From contig OX597819.1 of the NCBI GenBank assembly GCA_951406725.2, positions 73,904,001 through 73,968,000 of the forward strand: 64,000 nucleotides of DNA, given 5' to 3'. The notes below the pieces were generated by a model. It ran no database searches. It was not told the origin of the DNA and saw only the letters and a list, made by a program, of their open reading frames with translations. The position numbers and the translations under genes were made by a program. The DNA is from Octopus vulgaris. Its lineage: Eukaryota. This document shows positions 8,501 to 49,429 of this stretch, piece by piece; the stretch's first letter is position 1; every line of letters starts with the position of its first letter.

Positions 8501-8548
8501 GTCTCCAATGAAGGGATATATAAAATACCCTGGAAACAGCTGTAAGAC
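8501..8548 (+). ncRNA. Type I hammerhead ribozyme, degenerate core (CCAAUGA)
   Basis: GUCU-CCAAUGA-AGGG/CCCU-G-GAAAC AGCU GUA-AGAC. Lies in the spacer of inverted repeat 8393-8433/8551-8590. Confidence 0.7.
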
Positions 8549-9271
8549 CTATTTATAAATGTTCTAAAATATTTCACAGCCTTGGATTTTGTTGAAGTAC
8601 AGAAAAAAAAAGAAACACTTCAGGTAAAATATAGACCCTGAATGCAAATGAAGCCGAACTGTTTGTAAAGCATTATTTAGTCCGGAGCCTTAGCGATGTT
8701 TTCCATAATTCTAATGATATTTAGAAAAAAAACTGAAAGCGTATAGTTTGTAATTTAATTGTGCTCAACAGCTGTTTTAATAGCATAAAACATCATTATG
8801 ATGTTGCGAAAACATCATTACGTCATTAAAATATATAATTAATTTAATGATAGGCGCAGGCATGTCTGCGTGGTTAAAAAGGTTGCATTGGAACCAAGTG
8901 GTTTCGGGTTCAGTTCCACAGCATGGCAACTTGGTTAAGTGCGTTCTACTATAGCCTTGTGCTGACTAAAGCCTTGTGGTAGAGGGCAACTGTAGAAACT
9001 CGACATATATATGTGTGTGTATGCACATATATATATATATATATATATATATATATAGTGTGAAATAGAAAGATGAATAATCTTGTTGCAGATTAATCAA
9101 AAGTTTAACCGATACCTTGGTAGCAAAAATCACAGCAGAAGACAGCACGGTTGGAGGTACAACCATATGGTGTTGCAACCGTGCGTTGGTGCGGATAATT
9201 GAATTTTAATATTATTAGTGAATTGAAGAAATGGAGTTGAACGAAGATTGAACAGAAATCGTTTTATTGCA

Positions 9272-9351
9272 TTCTACACGTGTTTCGAAAGGCACAATTT
9301 ACCAAATTCCGATTGAATAAGGAGACCATATTGTGTCTTTCTCTTCAGGAA
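9272..9351 (-). ncRNA. Type I hammerhead ribozyme, intact core (left arm)
   Basis: Mirror image of 9531-9610. Confidence 0.85.
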
Positions 9352-9530
9352 GAAATAGGAAATCCGTTGGAAAAAACAAAAACAGAACAGAGGCGGAGCA
9401 AAACAAATCGAACGAGGCTCCTAAGAGCCCATGGCCAAACTCTTTGGCCATGGGCTCTTAGGAGCCTCGTTCGATTTGTTTTGCTCCGCCTCTGTTCTGT
9501 TTTTGTTTTTTCCAACGGATTTCCTATTTC

Positions 9531-9610
9531 TTCCTGAAGAGAAAGACACAATATGGTCTCCTTATTCAATCGGAATTTGGTAAATTGTGCCTTTCGAAAC
9601 ACGTGTAGAA
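9531..9610 (+). ncRNA. Type I hammerhead ribozyme, intact core
   Basis: UUC-CUGAAGA-[GAAAGACACAAU/AUUGUGCCUUUC]-GAAAC ACGU GUA-GAA. Confidence 0.85.
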
Positions 9611-10817
9611 TGCAATAAAACGATTTCTGTTCAATCTTCGTTCAACTCCATTTCTTCAATTCACTAATAATATATATATATATATATATATATATATATA
9701 TATATATATATATATATATATATATATATATATATATATATATATGTATATATGTATGTATGTATGTATGTATGTGTGTGTGTGTGTGTGTGTATGTATC
9801 TGTGTGTGTTTGTTCTCCACTATCGTTTGACAACCGGTGTTGGTTTTTTACGTTCCCTTAACTTCTGCAGTTCAGCAAGAGAGTTTTATAGGAAAAGTAC
9901 CAGATTTGTGAAAAAAAAAAAAAAAAAGAAAAAAGAAAAAGGAGAAAGAAAGGTAAGAATGTAATGGGGTTGATTTGCTTCGACAATAATTCTTCAAGAT
10001 GATGTTCCAGCATGGTTGCAGTTCACTGACTCAAACAAAAAAAAGTTAAAAAGTAAAAAGATGCTGTTCCCATTTTTCAATTCTCACAGGCACTTTATAT
10101 GAGGAACAATCAACTACGCCCCTTCTCTCGTTAATAATAATAAAAAAAAGGTTTACACTTCAATGACATCACACATTTACAAAAACAACAATTATACAGA
10201 AATATAAAAATATTTCCTTACCTTGGCCATTCACATTTCCCATGTTATAATTTATTCACCTTTCGAAGTTTTTCTTGTTTTTGTAAATTCCACTTATAGA
10301 ACTTTCCTTTTTAAAATTAGTAAAATTCCGAAAAATCCCAAACGCTTCAAAGCCAAGTTCTAAAGCAAACACTTAATACGTTCTTGTTTCTTTGGTCAGT
10401 GTATGTTAAATGTCTCTTGGTTAAGTGATCGTTCCCTTGGATGCTTGTTCCTAGATTTTTCTAATCTTCTTAGAGAATACAAAAGAGATAATGTCCACAA
10501 AATCCACAATTATGCTGAAATTACTAGCCTGGATTCATTCTCGAATTATCATCTTCGTTATTAAGATGACCGTCGGCATCTTCCCCATTGTCGTCATGGC
10601 GTTTATAATTACATTCTGCAATGACAAGGAAAATCGGAAATAGCACGGACATATCACGTTTAGCTTTACAGCAACTGGATTGCAACCTGTTTCTCTTTCA
10701 CTTGTCTCTCTCTTCCTACCCCTTCACACTCATACATACACGCGCGCATGCTCACACATACACACATGCACACAGACACAGACACACACACAAACACATG
10801 TAGTTATGTATATATTC

Positions 10818-11268
10818 TTTTATTCTTTTACTTGTTTCAGTCATTTGACTGCGGCCATGCTGGAGCACTGCCTTTAGTCGAACAAATCGACCCCAGGACT
10901 TATTCTTTGGAAGCCTAGTACTTATTCTATCGGTCTCTTTTTGCCGAACCTAAGTTGTAAGGACGTAAATACACCAGCATTGGTTGTCAAGCGATGGTGA
11001 AGGGACAAACACACACACACAAACATATGCACACACACACACACACACACACACACACACACACACACACACGCGCGCGCGCACACACTCACACACATAC
11101 ACACACACACACACATGATGGGCTTCTTTCAGTTTCCGTCTACCAAATCCACTCACAAGGCATTGGTCGGCCGGAGGCTATAGTAGAAGACACTTACGCA
11201 AGGTGCCACGCAGTGGGAGTGAACCCAGAACCATGTGGTTGGTAAGCAGGCTACTTACAACACAGCCA
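10818..11268 (-). mobile_element. Full-length SINE family A (tRNA head, internal TG/TA microsatellite, CR1-like tail)
   Basis: Head-microsatellite-tail layout. Further copies at about 25487-25830(+), 28555-28915(-), 38215-38585(-), 40110-40530(-), 43885-44935(+), 52175-52592(+). Confidence 0.85.
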
Positions 11269-11385
11269 ACACGAATACATACATATATGCAAGCATGCAT
11301 GCATGCGTGTATGTGTGTGTGTGTGTGTGTGTGTGTGTGTGTGTGTGTGTGTGTGTGTGTGTGTGTGTGTGTGTATACATACATA

Positions 11386-46587: not shown

Positions 46588-47291
46588 GTTTAATCAAGCA
46601 ATTAGATGTGTTTGTCAAAGTCCTTTCATCATCACCATTTGGGACCTCATGACATGCCCTCACTATTCAACGTTTGTATCTTAGTTTTAGGTAAAGAAGT
46701 TAAATTGAACCGTGTCTTTATTATTGGTATGATGATTCACTTGAGATAATTACAAATAGGATATAACGAGGAGTTACAGTGGGGTGAATACTATGGACAT
46801 GTTTTGCTCTTATAGCACCTCATAAGTGACGCATAGTTTAACCATTACTGCAAATTATAGGGGTAAAATTTATTCCGTTAGAACAAACTGTACTGCGATA
46901 AACAACACGAGAGAGACACTTATATTGGCTTTTTGGCGCAAAATGCACATTTGTTTATATCGCTGGTCTCGTCAAAGACGAACGCTCGACCGCTAGAGAT
47001 AGCAGCGACTCATCTCTCCGCATGCGATACACACACACACACACATATCTTTCCTTTCCTGAGCGTCCAATAACACTATACTTGTTCATGTTTGGATTAA
47101 CTATATATATATATATATATATATATATATATATATATATATATATATATATATATATATATATATATATATATATATATATATATATATATATATATAT
47201 ATATATATAAAATAAATATATAGATATATAAATAAATATATATATATTACATTTCTAAATATCTGATAGAGATATGTACGGTGGTGGGGCG

Positions 47292-47576
47292 ATATAATAG
47301 TTGTATACTGTCAATTTAACGTGACAGTAGGGGATTACACCACCGCTGTTTAGCCCTAGGAAGCATCGAAAGCTTCCTGTCGTCTTCGACACATTTACTG
47401 TGTCCTTATTACGAAGGGGATGTATTTGGGGGTATTCGTCTCCCCTTCGTAAATATATATAAGGACACAGTAAATGTGTCAAAGCCGACAGGAAGCGTTC
47501 GATGCTTCCTAGGGATAAACAGCGATGGTGTAATACCCTACTGTCACATTAAATTGACAGTATACAACTATTATAT
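47292..47576. repeat. Palindrome with about 130-bp arms between (TA)n tracts, no HHR seen
   Basis: atataatagttgtatactgtcaatt...tacgaagggga / tccccttcgta...aattgacagtatacaactattatat. Confidence 0.92.
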
Positions 47577-47840
47577 ATATATATATATATATATATATAT
47601 ATATATATATATATATATAAATATATATATATATATATATATATATATATATATATATATATAAATAAATATATATATATATATAAATATATATATAAAT
47701 ATATATATATATATATATATATATATATATATATATATATATATATATAATGATAGAGCCAGAACAGGTGTTGCTGTCGCGATTAGGCTTGTTAATATAT
47801 ATATATATATATATATATATATATATATATATATATATAT

Positions 47841-48185
47841 ATAATAAATATTAGGGAATAAATCCAAACTTACAGGGAAAAATCAGATTTAGGATTGAAT
47901 CCAATTTTATAGTAAAATATTATATTATATTAAATTAGAGACGAAACCACTATTAGGCAAATCAAACAATGAAAGACTTAAGCGAATACATATGATTAAT
48001 TTATATTATTTAAATATGTAACAATTATTAAAAAATATAATTAAAAAATATAAAAAATATATTAATTATATTTTTTAATAATTGTTACATATTTAAATAA
48101 TATAAATTAATCATATGTATTGGCTTAAGTCTTTCATTGTTTGATTTGCCTAATAGTGGTTTTGTCTCTAATTTAATATAATATA
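47841..48185. repeat. Second copy of the 35929 palindromic family, opposite orientation
   Basis: Extension 47841-47920; arms 47921-48044 and 48062-48185; (TA)n on both sides. Confidence 0.92.
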
Positions 48186-48537
48186 TATATATATATATAT
48201 ACATTAGTGACAGAGGCAGAATTAATATCGAGAGGTAATATTTATCACCACTCAAACGTGGGAGTTCTGTTAGAACAAACTATACTGTGGCAGATACCTC
48301 GAGAGAAACTATCATATTGGCTTTTTGGTGCAAAAAGTACACTTGTTTATATCACTGGTGAGGAGATACATCCCCGCCATCTCCAACGCCGAGAGTTTGG
48401 AAGTATACTTCTTAGCACATAGCCAGGCCTTTGCCTCTATATTAATTTTTAAAACAAAAATATTTTTTAATACTTCAGATAAAATTGAATTAAATTTCTC
48501 ATTTGTATAACTCCTCCCGTAACCACTCTGTTAATTT

Positions 48538-48765
48538 TCTTCTTCTTCTTCTTCTTCTTCTTCTTCTTCTTCTTCTTCTTCTTCTTCTTCTTCTTCTTCT
48601 TCTTCTTCTTCTTCTTCTTCTTCTTCTTCTTCTTCTTCTTCTTCTTCTTCTTCTTCTTCTTCTTCTTCTTCTTCTTCTTCTTTTTCTTCTTCTTCTTCTT
48701 CTTCTTCTTCTTCTTCTTCTTCTTCTTCTTCTTCTTCTTCTTCTTCTTCTTCTTCTTCTTCTTCC
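48538..48765. repeat. (CTT)n microsatellite
   Basis: About 75 units; the source of the poly-L and poly-E ORFs. Confidence 0.98.
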
Positions 48766-49383
48766 AGTCCCTTACATGTCACGGAAACCAAGTAACCGGC
48801 CTCTTGAGTGCCAGTCCTCGAGGAAAAAACAAAACAAAAAAAAAACAGAGCTACTCTTAAAATCTATAAATAGTGTTCTAATTTGTTATTTCGCCCCGTT
48901 AATGGATCAAATCATTGTGTAAACCATAGAAATACGCCTTGTTTAACAAATGTTGTCAATGTAGACTATTTTAGAGCTCATTACCATGTATTTACTTTAT
49001 AAGGACATGAGAGAACAGTTCATTATTGTGTTAACAGCGTCACAATAAATTTTACAATGAACAGACGATCTTCAACAACATTCAGTTTTTAATTTACATT
49101 TGGCAGAGTGTATGAGGGAAACTGCTGAATATAGTCAGGAGGTGCAGGATGAAAAAAAAAAAAGAAATTAAAGGGAAAATTATTGACATTTAACGGAGAT
49201 TTATCCTCATATGGTGTAGCGGCTACTAACCCCAAGATTCCAAGCAGTGACCTGAATAATAATAATAATAATAATAATGATGATAATAATAATAATAATA
49301 ATAATAATAATAATAATAATAATAATAATAACAACATCGAAAAATACCTTAGGAATGAGAACCCAGATTCGAAATTTCCCCAA

Positions 49384-49429
49384 GACACCTGATGAAGGCT
49401 GGAGGGTATATCAACCGAAACGTTGTGTT
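49384..49429 (+). ncRNA. Minimal type I HHR, canonical core, next to (AAT)n
   Basis: GACAC-CUGAUGA-A-GGCUG/CAACC-GAAAC GUU-GUGUU. Confidence 0.82.

What the first reader, a model, noticed from the sequence alone, without database searches (positions are those of the whole stretch)
8501..49429. Stem III is self-complementary in nearly every family despite different sequences
Segments from A15.1 to U16.1: ACAGCUGU (8501, 16065, 34640), ACACGUGU (9531), ACGCGCGU (15683), ACGAUCGU (36120), ACGU (family B, 49384), and near-palindromic ACUCCGAGU (29717). Independent palindromes amount to covariation evidence. Established: PLE-associated minimal HHRs with palindromic stem III cleave as dimers. Inference: the palindrome could act as a family-specific pairing code, and families sharing ACAGCUGU might cross-activate.
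Basis: partly seen in the sequence, partly recalled or inferred. Interest (0 to 1): 0.7.

Follow-up and report, generated by a model that had tools for sequence, protein, structure and literature searches.

The report
Penelope hammerhead palindromes, no family code
The short self-complementary stems are real and recur in tens of thousands of hammerhead-shaped RNA motifs in this animal genome, likely left by Penelope-type jumping genes; they fit the published idea that such motifs cut only in pairs, but many families share the same palindrome, so it is likely not a family code by itself.

Summary
All eight cited stem III strings are present. Five sit in motifs with an intact core, two in mutated motifs, and one (36120) in a half-motif with no core. 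ACGU has no free position, so it is not evidence.

Genome-wide, the palindromy is strong. There are 47,711 matches with an 8-nt stem III (control 2,487). Of 99 consecutive sites, 69 are perfect palindromes and 21 more pair with G·U; 29 of 38 families are palindromic against 4 expected. Related lineages switch palindromes by double changes.

This is the published design of Penelope-like-element hammerheads (Cervera & de la Peña 2014), predicted to work as dimers.

The 'code' is weak:
- ACAGCUGU is shared by 9 of 38 families, and one family carries several palindromes.
- A dimer must also swap stem I. Only 28 of 238 same-palindrome family pairs come within 2 kcal/mol of homodimers (0 of 1,193 different-palindrome pairs).
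- Of the three ACAGCUGU copies, 8501 and 16065 are predicted compatible and look related; 34640 is only partly compatible.

No cleavage was shown. The scan reported this before in this genome and in others.

The parts
8501..8548 (+). Decayed type I hammerhead motif: stem I GTCT/AGAC, core CCAATGA (two changes), stem III ACAGCTGT at 8536-8543
9272..9351 (-). Hammerhead motif, intact core, stem III ACACGTGT at 9283-9276; mirror copy in a perfect 231-bp inverted repeat (9209-9439 / 9443-9673)
9531..9610 (+). Hammerhead motif, intact core, 3-bp stem I, stem III ACACGTGT at 9599-9606; a member of its wider family lies about 500 nt downstream of a GIY-YIG-like fragment in L215, and a look-alike motif about 240 nt after a similar fragment in L078
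15683..15784 (+). Hammerhead motif, intact core, 75-nt stem II region, stem III ACGCGCGT at 15772-15779
16065..16135 (-). Hammerhead motif, intact core starting at 16130, stem I TGTCT/AGACA, mismatched base of stem II, stem III ACAGCTGT at 16078-16071
29717..29754 (+). Decayed hammerhead motif (core CCGACGA), odd-length stem III ACTCCGAGT at 29741-29749; a member of the ACTC-N-GAGT class (8,854 matches in the genome)
34640..34734 (-). Hammerhead motif, intact core starting at 34727, stem III ACAGCTGT at 34654-34647, in the left arm (34521-34859) of a 339-nt inverted repeat
37377..37471 (+). Mirror copy in the right arm (37252-37590), core mutated to CTAAAGA, stem III ACAGCTGT at 37457-37464
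36063..36128 (.). Back-to-back half motifs (3' strand of stem II, GAAA, ACGATCGT) on both strands; the catalytic CUGANGA and 5' stem I are absent
   Evidence: compared with full family copies L175 and L237
49384..49429 (+). Minimal hammerhead motif, intact core, stem III ACGT at 49420-49423 (no loop), in the tail of a high-copy SINE-like repeat
39492..39719 (.). Uncited inverted pair of hammerhead motifs: 39545- with ACCTTGGGT, and 39661+ with decayed ACTTTGGAT
5221..5304 (-). Uncited decayed hammerhead motif (core CTAAAGA), stem III ACGTATGT
34857..35295 (-). GIY-YIG-like endonuclease fragment of Penelope-like type; probably a separate nested insertion, not the ORF of the 34727 motif
   Evidence: (Pfam GIY-YIG E=0.048, below cut-off)

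Best explanation
The motifs are mostly isolated or inverted, often decayed type I hammerhead sequences, likely the end repeats (pLTRs) of Penelope-like retroelements and their non-coding derivatives, and their self-complementary stem III is likely kept because two copies would pair through it to form a double hammerhead. Shown: the sequences, their numbers, the covariation, and the sharing of palindromes between families. Predicted: a lone copy cannot close stem III (2 bp plus tetraloop, +2.4 kcal/mol), whereas two copies form an 8-bp helix (-10.5 to -19 kcal/mol). From the topology of a type I hammerhead, the 5' half of one RNA then meets the 3' half of the other, so stem I is swapped as well and partner choice depends on stem III and stem I together. 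Inferred: selection acts on self-complementarity in the transposing parent RNA, most likely between tandem copies in one transcript. The particular palindrome is inherited and drifts by compensated steps, often through G·U or CpG-decay intermediates. Any exclusion between families is a by-product.
For: Genome counts against reversed-pattern controls. 69 of 99 consecutive sites are perfect palindromes and 90 of 99 pair with G·U; 29 of 38 families against a shuffled mean of 4.1, maximum 14 in 20,000 shuffles. Covariation score 0.623 against 0.110, 0 of 500 shuffles. Switches between near relatives, such as CATG/CTAG and CGCG/TGCA, on a tree built without the loop. 24 of 30 imperfect loops are one transition from a palindrome. 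Inheritance: 17 of 39 related pairs share a loop against 103 of 1,392 unrelated pairs. Energies. Back-to-back inverted copies at 21 of 68 sites match the described PLE insertion layout (PMC8557442 passages). Motifs follow GIY-YIG-like fragments on the same strand in L078, L215, L164 and L123. PMC4209133 states the palindromic loop 3, the dimer model and low activity.
Against: No cleavage is shown for any motif. Only 1 of 68 sampled sites has a same-strand partner within the flank held (at least 1.3 kb each side), so most genomic copies have no nearby partner. Only 4 of 148 motifs have PLE protein remnants upstream on the same strand within 1.3 kb, no more than upstream on the opposite strand (4), and one of the four (the window's own) is probably a nested neighbour. 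No ORF link was shown for any ACAGCTGT family. A 526-match family has non-palindromic ACCGAGGT, and some families have longer stems that could close alone. The only purified PLE studied needed its protein for ribozyme cleavage and did not need cleavage for insertion in vitro (PMC11167929 passages).
Confidence: 0.8

Rival explanations
1. Stem III, alone or with stem I, is a selected self-recognition code that keeps co-resident families from cleaving each other in trans, or lets a non-coding element plug into its partner's dimer.
For: Mismatched palindromes cost a median 12.3 kcal/mol in stem III, and 0 of 1,193 different-palindrome family pairs come within 2 kcal/mol of homodimers. Loops change between near relatives. 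A Cervera & de la Peña passage notes extreme variability of these motifs within genomes. A SINE-like family has one motif per unit and would need a partner in trans.
Against: Palindromes are shared and unevenly used. Relatives tend to keep, not change, the loop. About 24,700 ACGT-type matches have no variable position. Discrimination follows automatically from self-complementarity and needs no selection.
Confidence: 0.1
2. The motifs fold as monomers with help from the element's protein; the palindrome matters for something else, such as protein binding or a weak 2-bp stem.
For: The anole PAc hammerhead cleaved only with its protein present (passages). Direct tandem partners are rare among genomic copies.
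Against: The two central bases covary (both sides changed in 13 of 22 distinct rows) although they cannot pair inside a monomer loop. In 9-nt stems the bases flanking the free centre are C-G in 8,854 of 11,359 matches (few families). ACGU cannot close at all as a monomer.
Confidence: 0.07
3. Palindromes arise by a mutational process (template switching that perfects near-palindromes, or CpG decay on both strands) with no selection on RNA pairing.
For: Some switches (CGCG to TGCA, GATC to AATT in the ACGATCGT context) are double CpG transitions.
Against: AC-N4-GT and control 8-mers outside the motif are palindromic at only 9-11%. CATG/CTAG needs two transversions.
Confidence: 0.03

Closest known systems
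Minimal and small-palindromic-helix-III type I hammerheads in pLTRs of metazoan Penelope-like elements (Cervera & de la Peña 2014, PMC4209133; parts 1-2 of 4 read: abstract, results, discussion, start of methods)
   Same: Type I layout, short stem I, long stem II, bare or palindromic stem III, many families per genome, mostly single or inverted copies 100-700 bp apart, dimer model.
   Different: Here the palindromic insert is mostly 4 nt (8-nt stem III) with most of the 16 possible versions seen, plus odd-length and ACCGAGGT classes. In ACAGCTGT motifs the base of stem II is usually mismatched (14 of 15 sites). The paper's figures and supplements were not seen.
[quoted passage not shown]
   Same: By title and by the review's passage: a palindromic, very short loop III and cleavage as dimers.
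   Different: The paper was not held, so I cannot say whether it tested mixed families or stem I swapping.
Double hammerheads of newt satellite 2 and avocado sunblotch viroid (Forster et al. 1988, seen only as cited) and metazoan non-LTR retrozymes (PMC7229834 passages; bioRxiv 10.64898/2026.07.22.740005 parts 1-2 of 5)
   Same: Weak stem III, poor monomer cleavage, better cleavage in tandem dimers; some families here form 534-560-bp direct tandems (listings).
   Different: None of the cited window copies is in a direct tandem, and no circular RNA was tested.

Membership tests
Type I hammerhead ribozyme | CUGANGA and GAAA boxes, UH site, stems I-III in type I order | tested here: met
   Met in 5 of 8 cited sites; mutated at 8501 and 29717; absent at 36120. 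Family copies with intact cores are abundant.
Type I hammerhead ribozyme | Self-cleavage after H17 | not testable with these tools
   RNA-seq lays showed no end pile-up, which is uninformative.
Type I hammerhead ribozyme | Match to an Rfam hammerhead model | tested here: not met
   No cited site matched at E<=1; my inference is that the models do not cover these short-stem-III forms.
Dimer-type (min-HHR) hammerheads of PLEs | Stem III too short to close alone and self-complementary | tested here: met
Dimer-type (min-HHR) hammerheads of PLEs | Extra base before, and a G10.1-C11.1 pair at, the base of stem II | tested here: inconclusive
   Geometry varies across 99 sites: 51 direct pair, 28 one mismatch then pair, 6 extra base then pair, 14 other.
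Dimer-type (min-HHR) hammerheads of PLEs | Cleavage requires two copies | not testable with these tools
   Energy model only.
Penelope-like element pLTR | Motif lies in a terminal repeat next to an RT + GIY-YIG ORF | tested here: inconclusive
   Same-strand links in L078 and L215 (relatives of 9531), L164 (an ACGT family) and L123 (ACTC-N-GAGT class). A Pfam RT + GIY-YIG ORF in L038 is followed by a decayed motif. No link for ACAGCTGT, ACGCGCGT or ACGATCGT families; the window's own endonuclease fragment is probably nested.
Penelope-like element pLTR | Inverted 5'-truncated copy or partial tandem arrangement | tested here: met
   Four inverted pairs in the window; 21 inverted and 1 direct among 68 sites.
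Non-LTR retrozyme | Direct tandem units each with a hammerhead | tested here: not met
   Not met for the cited copies; seen for other families in genome listings.
Family-specific pairing code (proposed) | One palindrome per family, not shared | tested here: not met
   AGCT in 9 of 38 families, GATC in 5; five loops in one family.

The most novel reading that the evidence does not exclude
Stem III and stem I together form a two-part self-recognition code under selection. It would let hundreds of co-resident Penelope families, retrozymes and a hammerhead-bearing SINE dimerise and cut in trans only with kin or with a matching autonomous partner, and non-canonical entries such as a tandem G·A centre (ACCGAGGU) would extend the alphabet.
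Probability: 0.1. Interest if true: 0.65.

Novelty: already known. Interest (0 to 1): 0.2.

Why it matters
As it stands, this is a large, clean natural covariation set for a published model: the central bases of stem III covary although they can pair only between two RNAs. That supports the dimer model but does not change it. If partner choice were a selected code, it would be a form of RNA-level self-recognition among mobile elements and a ready set of mutually exclusive ribozyme pairs. The data here make the stem III-only version unlikely and show that any test must vary stem I as well.

Tried and rejected
Rfam scan: no hammerhead hit at the cited sites; one weak HH9 hit at 51142-51217 (E=0.056) showed no core on reading.

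Linking the 34727 motif to the adjacent GIY-YIG-like ORF: rejected as probably nested. None of 18 other copies of the ORF matched the arm within the flank held, and the arm and the ORF hit separate genomic places.

Stem I energies were wrong (unpaired cases were scored -4.1) and were replaced; the stem III table stands. The 16141 site was mis-placed and was corrected.

Sequencing runs: no RNA holder on record was listed. Three unstranded RNA-seq runs of 'organism B' (not shown to be the window's species) gave 3,528-4,873 reads on 49333-49465 and 32-44 on 15970-16240, with no place where many molecules begin or end. A small dip at 49423-49427 coincides with a deletion variant seen as loose ends. 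None of this is used as evidence.

ARAGORN found no full tRNA in 15 SINE-like loci. Pfam gave no hit for the L123 and L219 ORF pieces.

The Lünse et al. paper was not held. Searches for a pairing code or heterodimer test listed no paper on it by title or abstract start; two searches were context searches. Supplements of the papers were not read and may hold family-level stem III lists.

The 9-11-nt search is inflated by ACGT-family copies, so its total is not used.
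Full report
1. Observation. The window is G000:C6:73,904,001-73,968,000 in a 2.8-Gb genome, rich in microsatellites. All eight cited stem III strings are present. Five lie in motifs with intact CUGANGA and GAAA boxes (16065, 34640, 9531, 15683, 49384). Two have mutated cores (8501, 29717). At 36120 only the 3' half survives, as a fold-back with its mirror at 36063; full family copies elsewhere have the missing core. Four inverted pairs occur in the window, and none of the cited copies is in a direct tandem. A15.1-U16.1 defines the motif and C15.2-G16.2 is near-fixed, so ACGU is palindromic by construction and each 8-mer has two free pairs.

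2. More than chance. In an evenly spaced 0.8-Mb sample, a scan that asks only for A...U-H in stem III found 29 motifs (13 palindromic) against 2, 2 and 7 in shuffles. Exact genome-wide patterns, with the reversed pattern as control, gave: 8-nt stem III 47,711 (2,487); ACGT 24,688 (3,517, partly overlapping the 8-nt class); ACAGCTGT 5,353 (4, wider spacer range). The outer loop pair is Watson-Crick in 27,099 + 9,766 + 1,697 + 1,084 = 39,646 of 47,711 matches, against 530 of 2,487 in the control. These are pattern matches, not curated copies.

I fetched all 100 first-listed matches (99 distinct sites, C1 0-5.55 Mb). Of these, 69 are perfect palindromes, 21 more pair with G·U, and 9 do not pair. 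Clustered with the loop masked (75% identity), 29 of 38 families have a perfect palindrome as majority loop, against a shuffled mean of 4.1 and a maximum of 14 in 20,000 shuffles; at 85% and 65% identity the figures are 40 of 54 and 23 of 32. On these 38 representatives (22 distinct rows) the covariation score is 0.623 against 0.110, with 0 of 500 shuffles as high (that control ignores relatedness). Background palindromy of comparable 8-mers is 9-11%. A tree of 53 copies with C- or T-starting loops, built without the loop, needs 24 label changes and shows near relatives differing by double changes (CATG/CTAG, CGCG/TGCA). Several long branches in it are probably chance matches. The covariation claim therefore holds.

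3. What they are. The layout matches the minimal and small-palindromic-helix-III hammerheads of Penelope-like elements. [quoted passage not shown] Among 68 of the 99 sites with at least 1.3 kb of flank, 46 are alone, 21 have an inverted partner and 1 a direct partner. Inverted 5'-truncated copies are a described PLE feature (PMC8557442 passages).

Direct ORF links are few. Motifs follow GIY-YIG-like fragments in L078, L215, L164 and L123, and a decayed one follows a Pfam RT + GIY-YIG ORF in L038. In a systematic count only 4 of 148 motifs had a same-strand PLE remnant upstream, the same number as on the opposite strand. The endonuclease fragment at 34857-35295 looked like the ORF of the 34727 motif but is probably a nested insertion. 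PLE origin is thus inferred for most cited families and not shown for any ACAGCTGT family.

4. Mechanism. Predicted energies (helices only, initiation removed, no tertiary contacts): a monomer stem III of 2 bp plus tetraloop costs +2.4 kcal/mol; the two-strand helix gives -10.5 to -19.0; mismatched palindromes give -10.9 to +0.3. In a type I hammerhead the chain runs stem I 5' - core - stem II - GAAA - stem III - UH - stem I 3'. If stem III is intermolecular, each junction joins the 5' half of one RNA to the 3' half of the other, so stem I is swapped too (my deduction from topology).

I took 54 of 100 clusters (those with a perfect palindrome and own stem I of -4 or better; the set is enriched for AGCT by design, and 80% clustering may split families). 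Among 238 same-palindrome pairs, 38 have both cross stems I at -4 or better and 28 lie within 2 kcal/mol of the homodimers (26 of 190 for AGCT, 2 of 48 for the rest); among 1,193 different-palindrome pairs, 0 do. In the window, 8501 and 16065 share stem I GTCT/AGAC (cross -7.7 and -7.0; own -7.3 and -8.6), while 34640 gives -3.4 to -5.0 with them against -8.0 with itself. The two intact ACAGCTGT copies lie 18.6 kb apart on the minus strand; no transcript joining them was tested.

5. The code idea. A matching palindrome is predicted to be needed but not enough. It is not family-specific: AGCT is the majority loop in 9 of 38 families and GATC in 5, and one 23-copy family holds ATGT, ATAT, ACGT, GTGT and GTAT. 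Related clusters share a loop in 17 of 39 pairs against 103 of 1,392 unrelated pairs, and 24 of 30 imperfect loops are one transition from a palindrome. This is what descent with drift predicts. Exceptions exist: 526 matches with ACCGAGGT, which in a dimer would have a tandem G·A centre (that this can be stable is recalled, not from a call), and an odd-length class with a free centre (8,854 of 11,359 ACT-N3-AGT matches are ACTC-N-GAGT), to which 29717 belongs. A caution on function: the anole PAc hammerhead cleaved only with its protein, was dispensable for insertion in vitro, and left no RNA-seq ends at its site (PMC11167929 passages).

6. Novelty. Palindromic stem III and dimer cleavage in PLE hammerheads are in print. 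My searches listed no paper on a pairing code, but the most relevant paper (Lünse et al.) could not be read and supplements were not opened. Earlier notes of this scan, seen after my first reading was stated, reach the same verdict in this genome (e1-9976641) and in others. They are unchecked AI notes and are not counted as support; some call the genome an octopus's, which I did not test.

7. Verdict. A real, well-supported but known feature. Best explanation 0.8; selected code 0.1; interest 0.2.

Noticed in passing
window 49210-49530 +; L204, L205, L300, L301, L318: The ACGT-type hammerhead at 49389 lies in a high-copy unit with a tRNA-like head (A/B-box-like motifs by eye; no full tRNA by ARAGORN), an (AAT)n tract and the hammerhead tail. 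It may be a SINE carrying a pLTR-like end; with one motif per unit it would need a partner in trans.
   Followed up: partly
G000, e.g. L241, L253; C2:8129841-8131542: A young family (526 matches) has the non-palindromic stem III ACCGAGGT, sister to a CTAG lineage in the tree, and is often in 546-bp direct tandems.
   Followed up: partly
window 34521-37590: Nested stack: inverted ACAGCTGT arms enclose a GIY-YIG-like fragment with an inverted piece of its own 3' region, an ACGATCGT fold-back, and a decayed ACGT-type motif at 36454.
   Followed up: partly
window 15298-, 16434-, 36454+, near 39750+: Four decayed copies of a second ACGT-type minimal hammerhead family; in L164 a copy follows a PLE-like RT-thumb/endonuclease ORF.
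   Followed up: partly
window 17042-19714 +: LINE remnant with endonuclease and reverse transcriptase Pfam hits, split by a stop codon.
   Followed up: no
window 26006-26750, 12313-12958, 43411-43703, 58828-59144: Copies of a roughly 184-nt repeat unit, partly in tandem.
   Followed up: no
RNA reads on window 49333-49465: Many A>G and T>C differences in RNA reads compared with a DNA run; these could be editing of inverted repeats or other copies, and there is no matched DNA to tell.
   Followed up: no
window 13486-13629: Long near-perfect inverted repeat giving spurious miRNA-family hits.
   Followed up: no
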